NCBI GenBank assembly: GCA_964016885.1
Contig: OZ024763.1
Coordinates: forward strand, 28,582,001-28,646,000
Reading direction: 5' to 3'
DNA from: Eledone cirrhosa
Taxonomy: Eukaryota
DNA length: 64,000 nt
The notes below the pieces were generated by a model, which had not been told where the DNA came from, searched no databases, and saw only the letters and a program-made list of their open reading frames with translations. Position numbers and translations under genes: made by a program. This document shows, in pieces, positions 18,963 to 60,420 of this stretch. Each line of letters opens with the position of its first letter. Position 1 is the stretch's first letter.

Positions 18963-19528
18963 CATATATATATACATATATATATATACATATATATATA
19001 CATATATATATATACATATATATATACATATATATATATATTTCGTTTCTGAATTTGTTTAGCAAGATTCTTTATCTGAAATCGTGTGTTGAAACCGCTA
19101 TTTTTATACTTTGGGAGGGTCATGTTGCCAATAAGAAACACACGCACCAGTTGCTTTCACTTCAGTTTATTATATATTTATAAATTTACAAATTTATAAA
19201 TTTATAAATTTCTGGTTGGTTGGTTGGTTCCACAACCAGATATTTGTTTATATATAGTCATAGTCCTTTCGTCACACACTCTGTGACCTCTTCGGTGACT
19301 GGGGATTCCTTTCTTTGTTTCTGTGCCTCTCCTTTGTTCTGTCCTACGCCATTTTGTTTCTGTGTGTGTGTTGTGTGCTCAGTCTGCGCATGCGCCACAT
19401 CCGGGTGTCTGTGTGTGTTTATATTCATTTATCTATTTGTTTATTTATTTATTTACATGTTACTGGTTGGTTGTTTGTTCTATGTGTGTGTGTGTTTTCA
19501 TTTTGTCCTTAATTGTAAGTTGTGATGA

Positions 19529-20038
19529 GGCGAACTAGCCTACACATTTAGAAGGGCCCTAAATAAACATAAACTAAATATTGAGATAGTAGAAAGACCT
19601 GGTACCTCCGTAAAAACACTTATTAGCAAGACATACCCTTTTCAAAGACCCTCATGTATAGATAAGAAATGTATAACCTGTAAAATAAGCCCCCATATTA
19701 ACTGTAAAACGAGAAATGTAGTGTATAGCATAAGATGTACTGAAGGACAATGTAGAGACAAAAATATAGTGTACATAGGTGAGACTGCTCGTAGTATAGG
19801 GGAACGGATAAATGAACACTGGCGAGACCTTCAAGATAATAAAGAATCATCTGTACTCTACCAACATGCTAAGATAGAACACAAGGGTAAATTAGAGAAC
19901 ATAGAAATAAAAATAGAATCTACACACAGAAAAGATGCAATGTTTAGACAAATTACAGAGGAAATAAACATAAAAGAATTACAACCAAAATTAAATAGAA
20001 AATATGAGTGGAACAGCAACATCACAACTTACAATTAA
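19529..20038 (+). pseudogene. PLE C-terminal Cys-rich linker plus GIY-YIG endonuclease (Neptune-like) fragment
   Basis: Open frame GELAYTF...CIDKKCITC...CKTRNVVYSIRC...YIGETARSIGERINEH...H...H...E...PKLN. Confidence 0.9.
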
Positions 20039-20252
20039 GGACAAAATGAAAACACACACACACATAGAACAAACAACCAACCAGTAACATGTAAATAAAT
20101 AAATAAATAAACAAATAGATAAATGAACATAAACACACACAGACACCCAGATGTGGCGCATGCGCAGACTGAGCACACAACACACACACACAGAAACAAA
20201 ATGGCGTAGGACAGAAGAAAGGAGAGGCACAGAAACAAAGAAAGGAATCCCC

Positions 20253-20297
20253 AGTCACCGAAGAGGTCACAGAGTGTGTGACGAAAGGACTATGACT
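20253..20297 (+). ncRNA. Variant minimal hammerhead (CCGAAGA core) in pseudo-LTR
   Basis: agtca-CCGAAGA-g-gtcaca(gagtg)tgtgac-GAAA-ggac-TA-tgact; identical on minus at 19256-19300. Confidence 0.7.
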
Positions 20298-20473
20298 ATA
20301 TATAAACAACTATCTGGTTGTGGAACCAACCAACCAACCAGAAATTTATAAATTTGTAAATTTATAAATATATAATAAACTGAAGTGAAAGCAACTGGTG
20401 CGTGTGTTTCTTATTGGCAACATGACCCTCCCAAAGTATAACAATATATATATATACATATATATATATATAC

Positions 20474-32566: not shown

Positions 32567-32568
<2 letters not shown>

Positions 32569-33580
32569 AAGGCGGGTAAAATTCCCGAGATCCATGGACG
32601 AGTTCTCTCCAGCGGTCTCTGTCCCTCATTATCGCTGCCCTATCCTGCATCTCCAACAGACTAGTGTCTGTCCTTAGGGCATCAACATATGTTAACCTTG
32701 GTCTTCCTCTTCTTGTGTGTCCATGTAGGGGCTCCCAAAGGAGCACTGAGTGCAATGTCAACTCTGGATGTCGGTGAGCATGTCCAGCCAACCTCAGTCT
32801 CCTCTGTGTCACTTTTGAGCTGACTTTTGGGATGCTCCCATACAGCTCTGAGTTTTTCATCCTCAGTGTATACTGATTAATGTTCAGAGCCATCCTCAGC
32901 ATTCTCGTGTAGCACCCATCCACCATCTGAGTGAGTCTCTTGGTCAGTGTCCAAGTCTCAGACCCATACAGCTGCACAGACTCCACTACAGCAATGAAGA
33001 GGCTGATTTTCAGGTCTCTACGAAGGTCCGACTTCCACACCGATCTCAAGCTGTGATACGCCGCCCAGGCCTTGCTCTTCCTCTCAACCACATCATCTTC
33101 CGTATTCCCAATCTTTGCTCCCAAATACAGGAAGTCCTCAACCAATTCCAGCGGCTTCCCGCCTACATTAGTGATCCCCTCTGGCTTCTCAACATTCTCT
33201 ACCAGATATTTTGTTTTAGTCTCATTCATTCTCAGCCCCACACTCATCGACACAGTCTCAACCTCCCGCATCAAATCCTCTGCCTCCTTCACTGTATTTG
33301 TCACCAAAACTATGTCGTCGGCAAATTCAGCATCCGATACCTTTTTCGCCCCAACTCTCCTGCTCTGAGCCGGTGCTACAGTAAAGCCAGTGTCCTGGTG
33401 TTTCTCCAGTGCAAGGCGCATACAATAGTCCACTACGATGATAAAAAGGTAGGGAGCCAATGTATCTCCCTGGAGCACTCCAGCCAGTATCTCAAAGAAC
33501 TCTGTCATCCCATCAGGTGTAATGACTTGGGCTTTGGTGTTGGTGTAGAGCAGTGATATCAGGTCCACTATCCTCTTGGA
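32567..33580 (-). mobile_element. 5'-truncated RTE-clade LINE, uninterrupted RT C-terminal frame
   Basis: [32 protein letters not shown] and RRGRP motifs. Confidence 0.92.
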
Positions 33581-36692: not shown

Positions 36693-36892
36693 NNNNNNNN
36701 NNNNNNNNNNNNNNNNNNNNNNNNNNNNNNNNNNNNNNNNNNNNNNNNNNNNNNNNNNNNNNNNNNNNNNNNNNNNNNNNNNNNNNNNNNNNNNNNNNNN
36801 NNNNNNNNNNNNNNNNNNNNNNNNNNNNNNNNNNNNNNNNNNNNNNNNNNNNNNNNNNNNNNNNNNNNNNNNNNNNNNNNNNNNNNNNNNNN
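36693..36892. other. Assembly gap (200 N)
   Basis: Run of N. Confidence 1.
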
Positions 36893-39800
36893 ATAATTCG
36901 AGTGAATGTGGAAATACACATATCGAATTAGAGTGCTCAATAGACATGTTAAAATAAAACAAAAGCTATTCATCACTCAATAGAATCGACAAAATATGAG
37001 CAATAAAATTAACCGGTGGATAGCTATGTCCAGAGCTAAATATATTAGAAAGATCGAGTATCGAAAAATCGGCGCACGAGTTAACGAAAAACGAAATCCG
37101 ATATGAGCGGCAGAGGGCTCAATAATTCAGATGAATCAGAGCTATAACTATCGTTAAAATACCGTCACATATAGAACAAGTCTACAATCAACCATACGAT
37201 TTAAAATCGATAAAGGAAGATTCGGGCCAAACAGATAAAAAATATCAATAAAACAATACGTCAATAATTTAAATGAATGTAAAATCATACCCGGACCCAC
37301 TAGAAAGGTGTTAAATCTAGCTTCATGGGTTTCTGTAAATCCTTAGACAGTACTCTATCAGCTCACATATAAATATAAAAGCCTACTAGAATAAGTGGAA
37401 AGGAGTTTACGTTGTCAACGAGTTTTATCCTGGCGGCAAAGGAGTCAACTAGCGGTGAAAAACGCACATGGCATTAGACAAGGGAGATGACCCCTATATC
37501 CGCGAAAATAATTCGAGTGAATGTGGAAATACACATATCGAATTAGAGTGCTCAATAGACATGTTAAAATAAAACAAAAGCTATTCATCACTCAATAGAA
37601 TCGACAAAATATGAGCAATAAAATTAACCGGTGGATAGCTATGTCCAGAGCTAAATATATTAGAAAGATCGAGTATCGAAAAATCGGCGCACGAGTTAAC
37701 GAAAAACGAAATCCGATATGAGCGGCAGAGGGCTCAATAATTCAGATGAATCAGAGCTATAACTATCGTTAAAATACCGTCACATATAGAACAAGTCTAC
37801 AATCAACCATACGATTTAAAATCGATAAAGGAAGATTCGGGCCAAACAGATAAAAAATATCAATAAAACAATACGTCAATAATTTAAATGAATGTAAAAT
37901 CATACCCGGACCCACTAGAAAGGTGTTAAATCTAGCTTCATGGGTTTCTGTAAATCCTTAGACAGTACTCTATCAGCTCACATATAAATATAAAAGCCTA
38001 CTAGAATAAGTGGAAAGGAGTTTACGTTGTCAACGAGTTTTATCCTGGCGGCAAAGGAGTCAACTAGCGGTGAAAAACGCACATGGCATTAGACAAGGGA
38101 GATGACCCCTATATCCGCGAAAATAATTCGAGTGAATGTGGAAATACACATATCGAATTAGAGTGCTCAATAGACATGTTAAAATAAAACAAAAGCTATT
38201 CATCACTCAATAGAATCGACAAATATGAGCAATAAAATTAACCGGTGGATAGCTATGTCCAGAGCTAAATATATTAGAAAGATCGAGTATCGAAAAATCG
38301 GCGCACGAGTTAACGAAAAACGAAATCCGATATGAGCGGCAGAGGGCTCAATAATTCAGATGAATCAGAGCTATAACTATCGTTAAAATACCGTCACATA
38401 TAGAACAAGTCTACAATCAACCATACGATTTAAAATCGATAAAGGAAGATTCGGGCCAAACAGATAAAAAATATCAATAAAACAATACGTCAATAATTTA
38501 AATGAATGTAAAATCATACCCGGACCCACTAGAAAGGTGTTAAATCTAGCTTCATGGGTTTCTGTAAATCCTAAGACAGTACTCTATCAGCTCACATATA
38601 AATATAAAAGCCTACTAGAATAAGTGGAAAGGAATTTACGTTGTCAACGAGTTTTATCCTGGCGGCAAAGGAGTCAACTAGCGGTGAAAAACGCACATGG
38701 CATTAGACAAGGGAGATGACCCCTATATCCGCGAAAATAATTCGAGTGAATATGGAAATACACATATCGAATTAGAGTGCTCAATAGACATGTTAAAATA
38801 AAACAAAAGCTATTCATCACTCAATAGAATCGACAAAATATGAGCAATAAAATTAACCGGTGGATAGCTATGTCCAGAGCTAAATATATTAGAAAGATCG
38901 AGTATCGAAAAATCGGCGCACGAGTTAACGAAAAACGAAATCCGATATGAGCGGCAGAGGGCTCAATAATTCAGATGAATCAGAGCTATAACTATCGTTA
39001 AAATACCGTCACATATAGAACAAGTCTACAATCAACCATACGATTTAAAATCGATAAAGGAAGATTCGGGCCAAACAGATAAAAAATATCAATAAAACAA
39101 TACGTCAATAATTTAAATGAATGTAAAATCATACCCGGACCCACTAGAAAGGTGTTAAATCTAGCTTCATGGGTTTCTGTAAATCCTTAGACAGTACTCT
39201 ATCAGCTCACATATAAATATAAAAGCCTACTAGAATAAGTGGAAAGGAGTTTACGTTGTCAACGAGTTTTATCCTGGCGGCAAAGGAGTCAACTAGCGGT
39301 GAAAAACGCACATGGCATTAGACAAGGGAGATGACCCCTATATCCGCGAAATAATTCGAGTGAATGTGGAAATACACATATCGAATTAGAGTGCTCAATA
39401 GACATGTTAAAATAAAACAAAAGCTATTCATCACTCAATAGAATCGACAAAATATGAGCAATAAAATTAACCGGTGGATAGCTATGTCCAGAGCTAAATA
39501 TATTAGAAAGATCGAGTATCGAAAAATCGGCGCACGAGTTAACGAAAAACGAAATTCGATATGAGCGGCAGAGGGCTCAATAATTCAGATGAATCAGAGC
39601 TATAACTATCGTTAAAATACCGTCACATATAGAACAAGTCTACAATCAACCATACGATTTAAAATCGATAAAGGAAGATTCGGGCCAAACAGATAAAAAA
39701 TATCAATAAAACAATACGTCAATAATTTAAATGAATGTAAAATCATACCCGGACCCACTAGAAAGGTGTTAAATCTAGCTTCATGGGTTTCTGTAAATCC

Positions 39801-42800
39801 TAAGACAGTACTCTATCAGCTCACATATAAATATAAAAGCCTACTAGAATAAGTGGAAAGGAATTTACGTTGTCAACGAGTTTTATCCTGGCGGCAAAGG
39901 AGTCAACTAGCGGTGAAAAACGCACATGGCATTAGACAAGGGAGATGACCCCTATATCCGCGAAAATAATTCGAGTGAATATGGAAATACACATATCGAA
40001 TTAGAGTGCTCAATAGACATGTTAAAATAAAACAAAAGCTATTCATCACTCAATAGAATCGACAAAATATGAGCAATAAAATTAACCGGTGGATAGCTAT
40101 GTCCAGAGCTAAATATATTAGAAAGATCGAGTATCGAAAAATCGGCGCACGAGTTAACGAAAAACGAAATCCGATATGAGCGGCAGAGGGCTCAATAATT
40201 CAGATGAATCAGAGCTATAACTATCGTTAAAATACCGTCACATATAGAACAAGTCTACAATCAACCATACGATTTAAAATCGATAAAGGAAGATTCGGGC
40301 CAAACAGATAAAAAATATCAATAAAACAATACGTCAATAATTTAAATGAATGTAAAATCATACCCGGACCCACTAGAAAGGTGTTAAATCTAGCTTCATG
40401 GGTTTCTGTAAATCCTAAGACAGTACTCTATCAGCTCACATATAAATATAAAAGCCTACTAGAATAAGTGGAAAGGAATTTACGTTGTCAACGAGTTTTA
40501 TCCTGGCGGCAAAGGAGTCAACTAGCGGTGAAAAACGCACATGGCATTAGACAAGGGAGATGACCCCTATATCCGCGAAAATAATTCGAGTGAATGTGGA
40601 AATACACATATCGAATTAGAGTGCTCAATAGACATGTTAAAATAAAACAAAAGCTATTCATCACTCAATAGAATCGACAAAATATGAGCAATAAAATTAA
40701 CCGGTGGATAGCTATGTCCAGAGCTAAATATATTAGAAAGATCGAGTATCGAAAAATCGGCGCACGAGTTAACGAAAAACGAAATCCGATATGAGCGGCA
40801 GAGGGCTCAATAATTCAGATGAATCAGAGCTATAACTATCGTTAAAATACCGTCACATATAGAACAAGTCTACAATCAACCATACGATTTAAAATCGATA
40901 AAGGAAGATTCGGGCCAAACAGATAAAAAATATCAATAAAACAATACGTCAATAATTTAAATGAATGTAAAATCATACCCGGACCCACTAGAAAGGTGTT
41001 AAATCTAGCTTCATGGGTTTCTGTAAATCCTTAGACAGTACTCTATCAGCTCACATATAAATATAAAAGCCTACTAGAATAAGTGGAACGGAGTTTACGT
41101 TGTCAACGAGTTTTATCCTGGCGGCAAAGGAGTCAACTAGCGGTGAAAAACGCACATGGCATTAGACAAGGGAGATGACCCCTATATCCGCGAAAACAAT
41201 TCGAGTGAATGTGGAAATACACATATCGAATTAGAGTGCTCAATAGACATGTTAAAATAAAACAAAAGCTATTCATCACTCAATAGAATCGACAAAAAAT
41301 GAGCAATAAAATTAACGGGTGGATAGCTATGTCCAGAGCTAAATATATTAGAAAGATCGAGTATCGAAAAATCGGCGCACGAGTTCACGAAAAACGAAAT
41401 TCGATATGAGCGGCAGAGGGCTCAATAATTCAGATGAATCAGAGCTATAACTATCGTTAAAATACCGTCACATATAGAACAAGTCTACAATCAACCATAC
41501 GATTTAAAATCGATAAAGGAAGATTCGGGCCAAACAGATAAAAAATATCAATAAAACAATACGTCAATAATTTAAATGAATGTAAAATCATACCCGGACC
41601 CACTAGAAAGGTGTTAAATCTAGCTTCATGGGTTTCTGTAAATCCTTAGACAGTACTCTATCAGCTCACATATAAATATAAAAGCCTACTAGAATAAGTG
41701 GAACGGAGTTTACGTTGTCAACGAGTTTTATCCTGGCGGCAAAGGAGTCAACTAGCGGTGAAAAACGCACATGGCATTAGACAAGGGAGATGACCCCTAT
41801 ATCCGCGAAAACAATTCGAGTGAATGTGGAAATACACATATCGAATTAGAGTGCTCAATAGACATGTTAAAATAAAACAAAAGCTATTCATCACTCAATA
41901 GAATCGACAAAAAATGAGCAATAAAATTAACGGGTGGATAGCTATGTCCAGAGCTAAATATATTAGAAAGATCGAGTATCGAAAAATCGGCGCACGAGTT
42001 CACGAAAAACGAAATTCGATATGAGCGGCAGAGGGCTCAATAATTCAGATGAATCAGAGCTATAACTATCGTTAAAATACCGTCACATATAGAACAAGTC
42101 TACAATCAACCATACGATTTAAAATCGATAAAGGAAGATTCGGGCCAAACAGATAAAAAATATCAATAAAACAATACGTCAATAATTTAAATGAATGTAA
42201 AATCATACCCGGACCCACTAGAAAGGTGTTAAATCTAGCTTCATGGGTTTCTGTAAATCCTTAGACAGTACTCTATCAGCTCACATATAAATATAAAAGC
42301 CTACTAGAATAAGTGGAACGGAGTTTACGTTGTCAACGAGTTTTATCCTGGCGGCAAAGGAGTCAACTAGCGGTGAAAAACGCACATGGCATTAGACAAG
42401 GGAGATGACCCCTATATCCGCGAAAACAATTCGAGTGAATGTGGAAATACACATATCGAATTAGAGTGCTCAATAGACATGTTAAAATAAAACAAAAGCT
42501 ATTCATCACTCAATAGAATCGACAAAAAATGAGCAATAAAATTAACGGGTGGATAGCTATGTCCAGAGCTAAATATATTAGAAAGATCGAGTATCGAAAA
42601 ATCGGCGCACGAGTTCACGAAAAACGAAATTCGATATGAGCGGCAGAGGGCTCAATAATTCAGATGAATCAGAGCTATAACTATCGTTAAAATACCGTCA
42701 CATATAGAACAAGTCTACAATCAACCATACGATTTAAAATCGATAAAGGAAGATTCGGGCCAAACAGATAAAAAATATCAATAAAACAATACGTCAATAA

Positions 42801-44521
42801 TTTAAATGAATGTAAAATCATACCCGGACCCACTAGAAAGGTGTTAAATCTAGCTTCATGGGTTTCTGTAAATCCTTAGACAGTACTCTATCAGCTCACA
42901 TATAAATATAAAAGCCTACTAGAATAAGTGGAACGGAGTTTACGTTGTCAACGAGTTTTATCCTGGCGGCAAAGGAGTCAACTAGCGGTGAAAAACGCAC
43001 ATGGCATTAGACAAGGGAGATGACCCCTATATCCGCGAAAACAATTCGAGTGAATGTGGAAATACACATATCGAATTAGAGTGCTCAATAGACATGTTAA
43101 AATAAAACAAAAGCTATTCATCACTCAATAGAATCGACAAAAAATGAGCAATAAAATTAACGGGTGGATAGCTATGTCCAGAGCTAAATATATTAGAAAG
43201 ATCGAGTATCGAAAAATCGGCGCACGAGTTCACGAAAAACGAAATTCGATATGAGCGGCAGAGGGCTCAATAATTCAGATGAATCAGAGCTATAACTATC
43301 GTTAAAATACCGTCACATATAGAACAAGTCTACAATCAACCATACGATTTAAAATCGATAAAGGAAGATTCGGGCCAAACAGATAAAAAATATCAATAAA
43401 ACAATACGTCAATAATTTAAATGAATGTAAAATCATACCCGGACCCACTAGAAAGGTGTTAAATCTAGCTTCATGGGTTTCTGTAAATCCTTAGACAGTA
43501 CTCTATCAGCTCACATATAAATATAAAAGCCTACTAGAATAAGTGGAACGGAGTTTACGTTGTCAACGAGTTTTATCCTGGCGGCAAAGGAGTCAACTAG
43601 CGGTGAAAAACGCACATGGCATTAGACAAGGGAGATGACCCCTATATCCGCGAAAACAATTCGAGTGAATGTGGAAATACACATATCGAATTAGAGTGCT
43701 CAATAGACATGTTAAAATAAAACAAAAGCTATTCATCACTCAATAGAATCGACAAAAAATGAGCAATAAAATTAACGGGTGGATAGCTATGTCCAGAGCT
43801 AAATATATTAGAAAGATCGAGTATCGAAAAATCGGCGCACGAGTTCACGAAAAACGAAATTCGATATGAGCGGCAGAGGGCTCAATAATTCAGATGAATC
43901 AGAGCTATAACTATCGTTAAAATACCGTCACATATAGAACAAGTCTACAATCAACCATACGATTTAAAATCGATAAAGGAAGATTCGGGCCAAACAGATA
44001 AAAAATATCAATAAAACAATACGTCAATAATTTAAATGAATGTAAAATCATACCCGGACCCACTAGAAAGGTGTTAAATCTAGCTTCATGGGTTTCTGTA
44101 AATCCTTAGACAGTACTCTATCAGCTCACATATAAATATAAAAGCCTACTAGAATAAGTGGAACGGAGTTTACGTTGTCAACGAGTTTTATCCTGGCGGC
44201 AAAGGAGTCAACTAGCGGTGAAAAACGCACATGGCATTAGACAAGGGAGATGACCCCTATATCCGCGAAAACAATTCGAGTGAATGTGGAAATACACATA
44301 TCGAATTAGAGTGCTCAATAGACATGTTAAAATAAAACAAAAGCTATTCATCACTCAATAGAATCGACAAAAAATGAGCAATAAAATTAACGGGTGGATA
44401 GCTATGTCCAGAGCTAAATATATTAGAAAGATCGAGTATCGAAAAATCGGCGCACGAGTTCACGAAAAACGAAATTCGATATGAGCGGCAGAGGGCTCAA
44501 TAATTCAGATGAATCAGAGCT

Positions 44522-44524
<3 letters not shown>
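36893..44524. repeat. 615-bp tandem array, 12 full units plus ~254 bp
   Basis: Unit starts at 36893, 37508, 38123, 38737, 39351, 39966, 40581, 41196, 41811, 42426, 43041, 43656 and 44271; only a few diagnostic differences. Confidence 0.98.
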
Positions 44525-44575
<51 letters not shown>

Positions 44576-44633
44576 TTATATTTATTTATATATATACACA
44601 TATCTGTGTATTAGACACACACACACACACACG

Positions 44634-49360: not shown

Positions 49361-49922
49361 CTAAGGCGGGTAAAATTCCCGAGATCCATGGACGAGTTCT
49401 CTCCAGCGGTCTCTGTCCCTCATTATCGCTGCCATATCCTGCATCTCCAACAGACCAGTGTCTGTCCTTAGGGCATCAACATAAGTTAACCTTGGTCTTC
49501 CTCTTCTAGTGTGTCCATGTAGGGACTCCCAAAGGAGCACTGAGTGCAATGTCAACTCTGGATGTCGGTGAGCATGTCCAGCCAACCTCAGTCTCCTCTG
49601 TGTCACTTTTGAGCTGACTATTGGGATGTTCCCATACAGCTCTGAGTTTTTCATCCTCAGTGTATACTGATTAATGTTCAGAGCCATCCTCAGCATTCTC
49701 GTGTAGCACCCATCCACCATCTGAGTGAGTCTCTTGGTCAGTGTCCAAGTCTCAGACCCATACAGCAGCACAGACTCCACCACAGCAATGAAGAGGCGGA
49801 TTTTCAGGTCTCTACGAAGGTCCGACTTCCACACCGACCTCAAGCTGTGACACGCCGCCCAGGCCTTTCTCTTCCTCTCAACCACATCATCTTCCGTATT
49901 CTCAATCTTTGCTCCCAAATAC
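49361..49922 (-). mobile_element. RTE LINE 3' fragment, same family as 32567
   Basis: YLGAKI...REFYPP*, near-identical to the 32567 copy. Confidence 0.92.
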
Positions 49923-49966
49923 ATATATACAGGGTGTATATATGTATTTGCTCCCAAATATATATA

Positions 49967-50051
49967 CAGGGTGTCCTAAAAACATGTATACACACTTTAA
50001 TAGCATTCTAATAAATATTGCCTGTACAGGAACATTTTTTGGGAAGCCCTG
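49967..50051. mobile_element. Tc1/mariner-type MITE
   Basis: ta-cagggtgtcc...gggaagccctg-ta. Confidence 0.6.
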
Positions 50052-57204: not shown

Positions 57205-60200
57205 TGAATATAGACATAGAATATTCGAAAATATTCTGTATGTTTATAATAAACATTTTGAAGACCTAATCGCTATAGAATAGAATACGTCACGTATTAC
57301 AATTAGATTCTCGACAAAAGCAAGGGAAGTAAATCTACGCGTTTCATTCTTATTAGAAATCGTCAGGACTACATATCCAGTGCTTTTGTCGAGAATGACA
57401 CAGCTAGAGACTTATAGAATACTTAGCTGTGTACAGGAACTGGTTTGAAAGAGCGGTTGCCGGTCCGGCAGAAATTAGAAATTGGAATAAATGCTCTGAA
57501 ATAGCGATATATATGTGAATATAGACATAGAATATTCGAAAATATTCTGTATGTTTATAATAAACATTTTGAAGACCTAATCGCTATAGAATAGAATACG
57601 TCACGTATTACAATTAGATTCTCGACAAAAGCAAGGGAAGTAAATCTACGCGTTTCATTCTTATTAGAAATCGTCAGGACTACATATCCAGTGCTTTTGT
57701 CGAGAATGACACAGCTAGAGACTTATAGAATACTTAGCTGTGTACAGGAACTGGTTTGAAAGAGCGGTTGCCGGTCCGGCAGAAATTAGAAATTGGAATA
57801 AATGCTCTGAAATAGCGATATATATGTGAATATAGACATAGAATATTCGAAAATATTCTGTATGTTTATAATAAACATTTTGAAGACCTAATCGCTATAG
57901 AATAGAATACGTCAGAGCATTTATTCCAATTTCTAATTTCTGCCGGACCGGCAACCGCTCTTTCAAACCAGTTCCTGTACACAGCTAAGTATTCTATAAG
58001 TCTCTAGCTGTGTCATTCTCGACAAAAGCACTGGATATGTAGTCCTGACGATTTCTAATAAGAATGAAACGCGTAGATTTACTTCCCTTGCTTTTGTCGA
58101 GAATCTAATTGTAATACGTGACGTATTCTATTCTATAGCGATTAGGTCTTCAAAATGTTTATTATAAACATACAGAATATTTTCGAATATTCTATGTCTA
58201 TATTCACATATATATCGCTATTTCAGAGCATTTATTCCAATTTCTAATTTCTGCCGGACCGGCAACCGCTCTTTCAAACCAGTTCCTGTACACAGCTAAG
58301 TATTCTATAAGTCTCTAGCTGTGTCATTCTCGACAAAAGCACTGGATATGTAGTCCTGACGATTTCTAATAAGAATGAAACGCGTAGATTTACTTCCCTT
58401 GCTTTTGTCGAGAATCTAATTGTAATACGTGACGTATTCTATTCTATAGCGATTAGGTCTTCAAAATGTTTATTATAAACATACAGAATATTTTCGAATA
58501 TTCTATGTCTATATTCACATATATATCGCTATTTCAGAGCATTTATTCCAATTTCTAATTTCTGCCGGACCGGCAACCGCTCTTTCAAACCAGTTCCTGT
58601 ACACAGCTAAGTATTCTATAAGTCTCTAGCTGTGTCATTCTCGACAAAAGCACTGGATATGTAGTCCTGACGATTTCTAATAAGAATGAAACGCGTAGAT
58701 TTACTTCCCTTGCTTTTGTCGAGAATCTAATTGTAATACGTGACGTATTCTATTCTATAGCGATTAGGTCTTCAAAATGTTTATTATAAACATACAGAAT
58801 ATTTTCGAATATTCTATGTCTATATTCACATATATATCGCTATTTCAGAGCATTTATTCCAATTTCTAATTTCTGCCGGACCGGCAACCGCTCTTTCAAA
58901 CCAGTTCCTGTACACAGCTAAGTATTCTATAAGTCTCTAGCTGTGTCATTCTCGACAAAAGCACTGGATATGTAGTCCTGACGATTTCTAATAAGAATGA
59001 AACGCGTAGATTTACTTCCCTTGCTTTTGTCGAGAATCTAATTGTAATACGTGACGTATTCTATTCTATAGCGATTAGGTCTTCAAAATGTTTATTATAA
59101 ACATACAGAATATTTTCGAATATTCTATGTCTATATTCACATATATATCGCTATTTCAGAGCATTTATTCCAATTTCTAATTTCTGCCGGACCGGCAACC
59201 GCTCTTTCAAACCAGTTCCTGTACACAGCTAAGTATTCTATAAGTCTCTAGCTGTGTCATTCTCGACAAAAGCACTGGATATGTAGTCCTGACGATTTCT
59301 AATAAGAATGAAACGCGTAGATTTACTTCCCTTGCTTTTGTCGAGAATCTAATTGTAATACGTGACGTATTCTATTCTATAGCGATTAGGTCTTCAAAAT
59401 GTTTATTATAAACATACAGAATATTTTCGAATATTCTATGTCTATATTCACATATATATCGCTATTTCAGAGCATTTATTCCAATTTCTAATTTCTGCCG
59501 GACCGGCAACCGCTCTTTCAAACCAGTTCCTGTACACAGCTAAGTATTCTATAAGTCTCTAGCTGTGTCATTCTCGACAAAAGCACTGGATATGTAGTCC
59601 TGACGATTTCTAATAAGAATGAAACGCGTAGATTTACTTCCCTTGCTTTTGTCGAGAATCTAATTGTAATACGTGACGTATTCTATTCTATAGCGATTAG
59701 GTCTTCAAAATGTTTATTATAAACATACAGAATATTTTCGAATATTCTATGTCTATATTCACATATATATCGCTATTTCAGAGCATTTATTCCAATTTCT
59801 AATTTCTGCCGGACCGGCAACCGCTCTTTCAAACCAGTTCCTGTACACAGCTAAGTATTCTATAAGTCTCTAGCTGTGTCATTCTCGACAAAAGCACTGG
59901 ATATGTAGTCCTGACGATTTCTAATAAGAATGAAACGCGTAGATTTACTTCCCTTGCTTTTGTCGAGAATCTAATTGTAATACGTGACGTATTCTATTCT
60001 ATAGCGATTAGGTCTTCAAAATGTTTATTATAAACATACAGAATATTTTCGAATATTCTATGTCTATATTCACATATATATCGCTATTTCAGAGCATTTA
60101 TTCCAATTTCTAATTTCTGCCGGACCGGCAACCGCTCTTTCAAACCAGTTCCTGTACACAGCTAAGTATTCTATAAGTCTCTAGCTGTGTCATTCTCGAC

Positions 60201-60420
60201 AAAAGCACTGGATATGTAGTCCTGACGATTTCTAATAAGAATGAAACGCGTAGATTTACTTCCCTTGCTTTTGTCGAGAATCTAATTGTAATACGTGACG
60301 TATTCTATTCTATAGCGATTAGGTCTTCAAAATGTTTATTATAAACATACAGAATATTTTCGAATATTCTATGTCTATATTCACATATATATCGCTATTT
60401 CAGAGCATTTATTCCAATTT
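57205..60420. mobile_element. Retrozyme-like array of 311-bp HHR-bearing monomers (about 2.3 copies on minus, 8 plus ~20 bp on plus)
   Basis: Period 311 (57206, 57517, 57828; 57913, 58224...60401); inversion at 57912-57914; (TA)n on both sides; one HHR per unit. Confidence 0.9.
58039..58082 (+). ncRNA. Minimal type I hammerhead (repeated at 58350, 58661, 58972, 59283, 59594, 59905, 60216; minus strand at 57329 and 57640)
   Basis: gtagtc-CTGACGA-t-ttct(aata)agaa-t-GAAA-cgcg-TA-gatttac; palindromic ACGCGT stem III; predicted cleavage after 58075. Confidence 0.85.

What the first reader, a model, noticed from the sequence alone, without database searches (positions are those of the whole stretch)
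36893..44524. 615-bp hairpin-rich, strand-biased tandem array ending in (TA)n: possible second class of RNA-derived multimer
Seen: at least 12.4 near-identical, complex, non-coding units with an A-rich plus strand. Many short hairpins are separated by A-rich linkers (taattcga..atgtg/cacat..tcgaatta, tgagc/gctca, cgattt/aaatcg, accca-ctaga/tctag-tgggt, ctgt/acag, cgttg/caacg, tcct/agga, aggg/ccct, gcgg/ccgc). The array stops mid-unit at gagcTATA, running straight into (TA)n, like the HHR elements here. No canonical CTGANGA occurs on either strand. Inference: a structured RNA monomer copied as a concatemer by a TA-targeting retroelement, perhaps using an unrecognised ribozyme. An ordinary satellite is the alternative.
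Basis: partly seen in the sequence, partly recalled or inferred. Interest (0 to 1): 0.72.

Follow-up and report, generated by a model that had tools for sequence, protein, structure and literature searches.

The report
Hidden-hammerhead retrozyme in TA repeats
This array is one of hundreds of scattered insertions of a young, protein-free repeat that carries an unusual version of a known self-cutting RNA motif (a hammerhead), and it was likely pasted into TA repeats by a Penelope-type retrotransposon enzyme copying a small RNA circle round and round.

Summary
The array is real: 12.4 units of 615 bp, with its left end lost in a gap. It is not an ordinary satellite, and no new ribozyme class is needed. 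The genome holds 742 exact copies of one fixed (TA)n junction. Insertions run from 0.08 to about 18 units, with one fixed and one variable end. The RNA strand is the minus strand. Every full unit carries a type I hammerhead motif missed because its core is U3-A8 (UUGACAA). It has a 50-65 nt insert in loop II, a full helix III and one extra A in the core. The motif parses in 25 of 25 relatives at 52-100% identity, with compensatory changes in stem II. The fixed end lies about 250 nt from the predicted cut site. It shares its last 13 nt with a young Neptune-type Penelope element (7,350 junctions). Best reading: a non-LTR retrozyme copied by rolling-circle reverse transcription. Cleavage, expression and circles were not shown. 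The class, the U3-A8 core and the model are published, and the scan already found sister retrozymes in this genome. Verdict: new variant of a known kind.

The parts
36893..44524 (-). Multimeric retrozyme-like insertion, 12.41 units of 615 bp; the inferred RNA sense is the minus strand. It is a mosaic of two haplotype blocks with a switch inside one unit.
36693..36892 (.). 200-N assembly gap that hides the left (expected fixed, 3') junction
37289..37423 (-). Type I hammerhead motif of the first unit, repeated every 614-615 bp (12 copies, last at 44052-44186). U3 at 37418 (core UUGACAA), extra C, stem II with a long insert, extra A, G12 at 37333, helix III, stem I.
37293..37294 (-). Predicted self-cleavage site (GUC|C), first unit
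   Evidence: predicted by hammerhead numbering, not assayed
37223..37226 (-). CCCG arm, 68 nt downstream of the cut site, predicted to compete for the 3' strand of stem I (candidate off-switch)
37040..37052 (-). Internal priming motif (RNA ...CUUUCUAAUAUAU), the phase at which family insertions join (TA)n; identical to the last 13 nt of a young Neptune-type PLE
44521..44596 (.). Variable 5' truncation junction (TATA microhomology at 44521-44524) and the (TA)n target

Best explanation
The array is one of at least 742 dispersed insertions of a non-coding 615-bp unit that carries a variant type I hammerhead motif on its minus strand, and it was likely made by a Penelope-like element's enzyme reverse-transcribing a circular RNA monomer many times round into a nicked (TA)n repeat. 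Steps: (1) a tandem locus is transcribed (inferred; promoter unknown). (2) The hammerhead cuts at GUC|C to release monomers (motif and covariation shown; cleavage predicted). (3) Monomers are ligated into circles, where a downstream helix may hold the ribozyme off (inferred). (4) A GIY-YIG endonuclease nicks (TA)n, and the DNA end pairs with an internal AUAUAU about 250 nt from the cut site (fixed junction shown; enzyme inferred). (5) The enzyme runs 0.1 to about 18 turns and stops at random; the 5' end joins the target by short microhomology (lengths and microhomology shown). The likeliest helper is the young Neptune-type PLE that ends in the same 13 nt.
For: Polarity: 16 of 17 fetched arrays start at the same unit phase after (TA)n, the 17th abuts a gap, and right ends vary (these were top hits among the 20 scored of 336 candidates). 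The genome has 742 exact fixed junctions, control 0, and 1,431 exact internal junctions. In a positional sample of 50 insertions, 20 were under one unit, 11 had 1-2 units and 19 had 2 or more. 5' microhomology averaged 1.86 nt against 0.47 expected in 21 scored of 27 tried. Hammerhead: 25 of 25 units parse, with positions 3-8 as U-A 19, U.G 5, C.A 1. 98.4% of cells are paired; 4 of 8 stem II pairs change on both sides (21 cells against 5.7 +/- 2.4 shuffled); slid controls give 19-54%. The descriptor hit 0 of 3000 shuffles, and the isolated motif's lowest-energy fold is the hammerhead. Circle: insertions read through the unit junction in all subfamilies (16 of 20 in the most distant, read by eye). 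40 of 42 multi-unit rows are uniform at 10 diagnostic sites while arrays differ by 0-28 changes. Variants seen in no other sampled array are shared by all 15 units of L208 and all 9 of L217. The 311-bp array in this window, with a canonical-core hammerhead, has the same geometry. Helper: an RT plus GIY-YIG element with a CxxC linker, copies mostly 94-99% alike, a U3-A8 minimal hammerhead in its pLTR and 7,350 exact 3' junctions in (TA)n.
Against: No RNA evidence was obtained and cleavage was not tested. The core has an extra A between 11.1 and G12 that I did not find described. In whole-unit folds the active form costs 1-10 kcal/mol, and it is already disfavoured before the competitor arm is made (0.3-13 kcal/mol), so the off-switch is not clean. 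Frangieh 2024 (PMC11167929) found that a PLE primes internally on linear RNA, at a site not homologous to the target, and does not need hammerhead cleavage in vitro. Li 2026 saw cleavage in only 1 of 9 predicted retrozyme dimers. The unit shows no extended homology to any of 46 PLE loci tested. The candidate helper has inverted arms in some copies (L185, L189), whereas 0 of 50 sampled insertions were flagged with one (45 resolved). The window's own array mixes two haplotypes, which needs a template switch, recombination or an assembly mosaic. The descriptor was written after seeing the motif, and the distant subfamilies were found with the helix III words, so helix III invariance there is circular.
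Confidence: 0.7

Rival explanations
1. Same element and same helper, but the template is an uncut linear multimeric transcript of an existing array, primed internally; the hammerhead is slow, protein-dependent or a passenger.
For: PMC11167929 (parts 1-2 of 4 read): internal priming on linear RNA, hammerhead not needed in vitro. The active fold is disfavoured in whole units. A homogeneous master array would also give homogeneous daughters. The window array is a mosaic.
Against: Arrays reach 16-18 units and should shrink each generation. Unit-specific variants are not shared between sampled arrays. Array-wide private variants exist. The core and its pairings are kept across 52-100% identity.
Confidence: 0.2
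2. DNA rolling-circle element (Helitron-like) that inserts concatemers with one fixed end into TA repeats.
For: A fixed plus a variable end and tandem copies also fit rolling-circle DNA transposition (recalled). The minus strand reads CTAA|T at the junction, resembling a CTRR|T end (recalled motif).
Against: There is a conserved hammerhead with strand-specific G.U changes: 17 C-to-U cells opposite G in stem I. The junction lies inside the unit and shifts by a few nt between AU-rich sites in other subfamilies, whose ends lack CTRR. The 13-nt end is shared with a PLE.
Confidence: 0.05
3. Ordinary satellite DNA amplified locally by unequal crossing-over.
For: Tandem near-identical units; the plus strand folds like shuffles.
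Against: 742 dispersed junctions at one phase, 20 of 50 sampled insertions shorter than one unit, a conserved ribozyme motif. Local recombination may still explain the mosaic in this one array.
Confidence: 0.03

Closest known systems
Metazoan non-LTR retrozymes (Cervera and de la Pena 2020, PMC7229834: passages and Discussion read; Li et al. 2026, 10.64898/2026.07.22.740005: parts 1-3 of 5 read)
   Same: Non-coding low-GC tandem units, one type I hammerhead per unit, dispersed monomers to multimers, co-existing with PLEs. Unit length lies inside Li's 51-972 bp range. The circle-to-tandem-cDNA model is proposed there.
   Different: U3-A8 core rather than C3-G8, so canonical descriptors miss it. 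Long stable helix III instead of 1-2 bp. 50-65 nt insert in loop II. A conserved competing helix, whereas the 2020 paper predicts most animal retrozyme circles leave the ribozyme free. Longer than the 170-400 nt invertebrate circles. Expression not shown here.
PLE pLTR hammerheads (Cervera and de la Pena 2014, PMC4209133: parts 1-2 of 4 read)
   Same: U3-A8 covariant (about 1,300 hits in Schistosoma), extra nucleotide between 9 and 10.1, G10.1-C11.1, long helix II (7-8 bp), short helix I (4-5 bp).
   Different: Those metazoan motifs are minimal and dimer-dependent. This one has a full helix III (as reported for fungal and protist PLEs), a second extra A before G12, and sits in an ORF-less tandem unit.
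Neptune-type Penelope-like element of this genome (L180 family; clade features from Craig et al. 2021, PMC8557442, passages read)
   Same: (TA)n target, fixed end at an internal AUAUAU, identical last 13 nt, U3-A8 hammerhead upstream of the end, more-than-unit insertions.
   Different: About 5-kb coding unit, minimal palindromic helix III, 143 nt rather than 248 nt from cut site to end, inverted arms in some copies, no extended homology.
Poseidon element of Anolis (Frangieh et al. 2024, PMC11167929: parts 1-2 of 4 read)
   Same: Reverse transcription starts at fixed internal sites of the RNA; AT-rich targets.
   Different: There priming is at a non-homologous AC-rich loop at two sites. Here it is at a target-complementary AUAUAU and sampled insertions are single-armed.

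Membership tests
Type I hammerhead ribozyme | Core N3-U4-G5-A6-N7-N8-A9 with a 3-8 pair, G12-A13-A14, A15.1-U16.1, H17 | tested here: met
   25 of 25 parse; U3-A8 19, U3.G8 5, C3.A8 1. U3-A8 is a natural, active covariant (PMC3088659, passages).
Type I hammerhead ribozyme | Three helices around the core, stem I open | tested here: met
   98.4% of cells paired, compensatory changes in stem II, one-sided C/U changes in stem I; lowest-energy fold of the isolated motif.
Type I hammerhead ribozyme | No extra nucleotide between C11.1 and G12 | tested here: not met
   An extra A is present in 25 of 25 (the parse required it). It can equally be read as a 10.1.11.1 mismatch. Effect on activity unknown.
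Type I hammerhead ribozyme | Self-cleavage at NUH | not testable with these tools
   Needs an in vitro assay.
Type I hammerhead ribozyme | Match to an Rfam hammerhead model | tested here: inconclusive
   No ribozyme hit, but Rfam at gathering score also missed the canonical-core 311-bp array in the window.
Non-LTR retrozyme | Non-coding tandem repeats with a type I HHR in at least two consecutive units | tested here: met
   12 consecutive motifs; longest frame 66 aa.
Non-LTR retrozyme | Dispersed copies, no LTR/PBS/PPT architecture | tested here: met
   742 junctions; polar, truncated insertions without terminal repeats. PBS/PPT not searched separately.
Non-LTR retrozyme | Expressed as linear and circular monomeric RNA | not testable with these tools
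   Only contigs of runs of unknown or guessed kind were offered.
Non-LTR retrozyme | Co-existence with autonomous PLEs | tested here: met
   10,596 GIY-YIG candidates, 150 scored; RT plus GIY-YIG frames.
Non-LTR retrozyme | Sequence derivation from a PLE pLTR (Li 2026) | tested here: inconclusive
   Only a 13-nt shared end; no blastn or nhmmer homology to 46 PLE loci, a small sample.
Helitron-like rolling-circle DNA element | 5' TC and 3' CTRR ends with a subterminal hairpin (recalled) | tested here: not met
   The CTAA look-alike is absent from divergent subfamilies, whose junctions slide between AU-rich sites; no fixed second end.

The most novel reading that the evidence does not exclude
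An active monomeric hammerhead of an undescribed architecture (U3-A8 core, extra A before G12, structured domain in loop II) with a built-in conserved off-switch makes a stable 615-nt circle. A specific Neptune PLE copies that circle up to 18 times round from a 13-nt end it shares with its own RNA. That would be a direct, testable case of rolling-circle target-primed reverse transcription, and a sign that standard descriptors miss a layer of animal retrozymes.
Probability: 0.4. Interest if true: 0.62.

Novelty: new variant of a known kind. Interest (0 to 1): 0.4.

Why it matters
The circle-to-tandem-cDNA step for retrozymes and PLEs is proposed in the papers read (PMC4209133, PMC7229834) but not shown there. 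This family supplies a young monomer, a defined priming site, a predicted cut site 250 nt away and a named candidate helper, so the step can be tested in vitro. It also shows how a retrozyme escapes CTGANGA searches and Rfam. The class, the core swap and the model are known, and sister families were already noted in this genome, which limits surprise.

Tried and rejected
Rfam: no ribozyme hit. First hammerhead guess using CUGAUAGA just upstream of GAAAC: rejected, because CUGA is not kept in divergent subfamilies. A distant CUGAUGA in some subfamilies: rejected as the core, because it reads G/AUGAUGA in young copies and sits in a local hairpin. Hairpin, twister, HDV-like, pistol and hatchet ribozymes: compared by eye from recalled consensus features and dropped; no descriptor was run for them. 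Splice-site reading (YAG ... GURAG around the 46-nt core): cannot give a full-unit circle; kept as a side note. Expression: no RNA holder listed; one run guessed to be RNA held a 144-nt exact piece at depth 2.2; neither is evidence. A-to-G editing scars (lead from e1-8803865): no bias among the few array-wide variants (by eye). Two-armed insertions (lead from earlier notes): 0 of 50 flagged. Target-site duplications cannot be read in (TA)n. The RNAalifold consensus on the widest alignment was weak (-18 kcal/mol, gappy rows). Searches (time-out; errors) gave nothing. Literature searches found no description of this family; supplements and Repbase were not seen and may list it.
Full report
OBSERVATION. 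The array spans 36893-44524: 12 full units of 614-615 bp and a partial one, 0-9 differences apart, 12.41 units in all. Its left end abuts a 200-N gap. It is non-coding (longest frame 66 aa), A-rich on the plus strand, and has no CTGANGA on either strand. It ends at gagcTATA into (TA)n. The plus strand folds no better than shuffles (circle z -0.96, 14 of 80 as good); the minus strand does (z -2.45, 0 of 80; linear folds). Rfam finds nothing at gathering score in the window and no ribozyme at E up to 10. The host is a 3.0-Gb animal genome; that it is a cephalopod is my inference and the wording of earlier notes, not a result of a call.

A DISPERSED, POLAR FAMILY. The unit has 336 candidate places, 20 scored. 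Of 17 arrays fetched from these top hits, 16 begin at the same unit phase directly after (TA)n, one abuts a gap, and the other ends vary. The exact fixed junction occurs 742 times, control 0; the exact internal junction occurs 1,431 times, with arrays of up to 16-18 units. I took 50 of the first 52 junctions listed on contig C1 (the other two were). 20 were shorter than one unit, 11 had 1-2 units and 19 had 2 or more; none was flagged with an adjacent inverted arm (45 resolved, 4 ran off the fetched stretch, 1 ended at a gap). About 30 of the 45 variable ends run into (TA)n (read by eye). For 21 scored of 27 tried, microhomology averaged 1.86 nt against 0.47 expected. One fixed end plus one truncated end is the signature of target-primed reverse transcription (established knowledge). 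It makes the minus strand the RNA and the window's right end a 5' truncation; the same break recurs in L075 and L200.

THE HIDDEN RIBOZYME MOTIF. A word from a loose end led to a divergent subfamily (738 hits), and a core pattern to more. This gave units at 52-100% identity. RNAalifold exposed a long-range helix with compensatory changes, which proved to be stem II of a type I hammerhead. The layout is: stem I (ACYYG/CGGGU), core UUGA-N-A-A, one extra nucleotide, G10.1-C11.1 opening an 8-9 bp stem that encloses a 50-65 nt insert, an extra A, GAAAC, helix III and GUC|C. It parses in 25 of 25 units (U3-A8 19, U3.G8 5, C3.A8 1) and in all 12 full window units; the first spans 37423-37289 with the predicted cut at 37294/37293. 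On alignment A1 (20 rows), 98.4% of cells pair; 4 of 8 stem II pairs change on both sides (21 cells against 5.7 +/- 2.4); slid controls give 19-54%. Related rows inflate such shuffle tests. Stem I varies only by C/U opposite G, which works on the minus strand only. A descriptor written after the fact hit 0 of 3000 shuffles. Helix III words were used to find the distant subfamilies, so their invariance there is circular; the 5' core strand and stem II were not used. The isolated motif folds as the hammerhead (0.2-2.1 kcal/mol from the ensemble in 13 of 13 tested). In the whole circle the active form costs 1-10 kcal/mol. In the window unit a conserved CCCG arm 68 nt downstream takes the stem I strand with probability 0.83; the arm pairs in 19 of 20 rows. 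The active form is also disfavoured in most nascent folds lacking that arm, so the off-switch is a suggestion only.

WHY A CIRCLE. The fixed end lies 248 nt from the cut site, at an internal AUAUAU complementary to the target, and insertions read through the unit junction in every subfamily. Arrays are internally uniform: 40 of 42 rows at 10 diagnostic sites, while arrays differ from the reference by 0-28 changes (three arrays appear as two rows, and row L220 joins two separate insertions). Variants seen in no other sampled array are shared by all 15 units of L208 and all 9 of L217, and unit-specific variants are not shared between arrays. 'Private' is relative to 50 of 742 insertions. A linear copy of a uniform master could mimic part of this. 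The window's array is the exception, with two haplotype blocks and a switch inside one unit: a template switch, later recombination or an assembly mosaic. The 311-bp canonical-core hammerhead array at 57213-60420 has the same geometry.

HELPER. GIY-YIG matches abound (10,596 candidates, 150 scored). Among 16 long-frame loci, one family (L180, 181, 185, 188, 189, 192; mostly 94-99% alike) has RT, a CxxC linker and GIY-YIG, which fits Neptune or Nematis by the features in PMC8557442. It carries a minimal U3-A8 hammerhead in its pLTR and ends in (TA)n at the same last 13 nt as the young subfamily, with 7,350 exact junctions. Six of those 13 nt are forced by the TA target, and older subfamilies end differently. 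No extended homology was found to 46 PLE loci, L180's N-terminus appears frameshifted, and some copies of this PLE have inverted arms, which the sampled retrozyme insertions lack. The partnership is therefore likely, not shown.

WHAT IS KNOWN. U3-A8 is a natural covariant (PMC3088659, passages). In PLEs it comes with an extra nucleotide after A9, a long helix II and a short helix I (PMC4209133, parts 1-2 of 4). Non-LTR retrozymes and the circle-to-tandem-cDNA model are in PMC7229834 (passages, Discussion). Li 2026 (parts 1-3 of 5) links them to PLE pLTRs, gives units of 51-972 bp, and saw cleavage in 1 of 9 tested. PMC11167929 (parts 1-2 of 4) shows internal priming on linear RNA without need for hammerhead cleavage, which supports the main rival. 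Searches found no account of this family or of the extra A before G12; PMC13282606 (passages) does not mention ribozymes; supplements were not seen. The scan's index has no look-alike of this unit or of L069, but it lists many sister retrozymes in this genome, several with U3-A8 and mostly two-armed (unchecked AI notes).

VERDICT. It works like, and on the testable features is, a non-LTR retrozyme, with a variant hammerhead (U3-A8, extra A, large loop II domain, full helix III) and single-armed insertions. Shown: dispersal, polarity, target, motif conservation, array uniformity. Inferred: transcription, cleavage, circles, helper. No expression evidence was obtainable. Confidence in the circle model 0.7; new variant of a known kind; interest 0.4.

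Noticed in passing
window about 57213-60420: 311-bp tandem array with a canonical-core minimal type I hammerhead (CUGACGA, palindromic helix III), an inverted arm joined at about 57915 and a fixed end at an internal AUAUAU. It matches the 310-bp family in earlier notes.
   Followed up: partly
window about 19040-20445: 5'-truncated PLE with a GIY-YIG frame (19529-20038), an inverted pLTR arm and a 3' end in (TA)n; a different family from L180.
   Followed up: partly
window 37284-37290 (minus) and all subfamilies: A 5' splice-site-like GURAG/GUAWR begins 3 nt after the predicted cut site in every subfamily. The L180 PLE has GGUAAAG across its own cut site and a pyrimidine tract plus AG before its ATG, suggesting a 5' UTR intron.
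   Followed up: no
coded runs X2-X7: Four other coded organisms (B-E) hold near-identical units (0.50-0.65 of words); two runs show the head-to-tail joint. Close relatives or horizontal spread not resolved.
   Followed up: partly
G000 loci L051-L149: At least three older subfamilies (52-84% identity, units about 594-628 bp; 738, 134 and 159 pattern hits) with the same polarity, mostly short insertions.
   Followed up: yes
L032, L074, L123, L063, L073: Different retrozyme families are often inserted next to each other in one TA tract; in L032 and L074 a 311-family copy follows directly.
   Followed up: no
window about 32567-33560 and 49361-49975: Two RTE-like LINE reverse transcriptase fragments (recognised by eye).
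   Followed up: no
L182 (G000:C1:83812774-83816064): [quoted passage not shown]
   Followed up: partly
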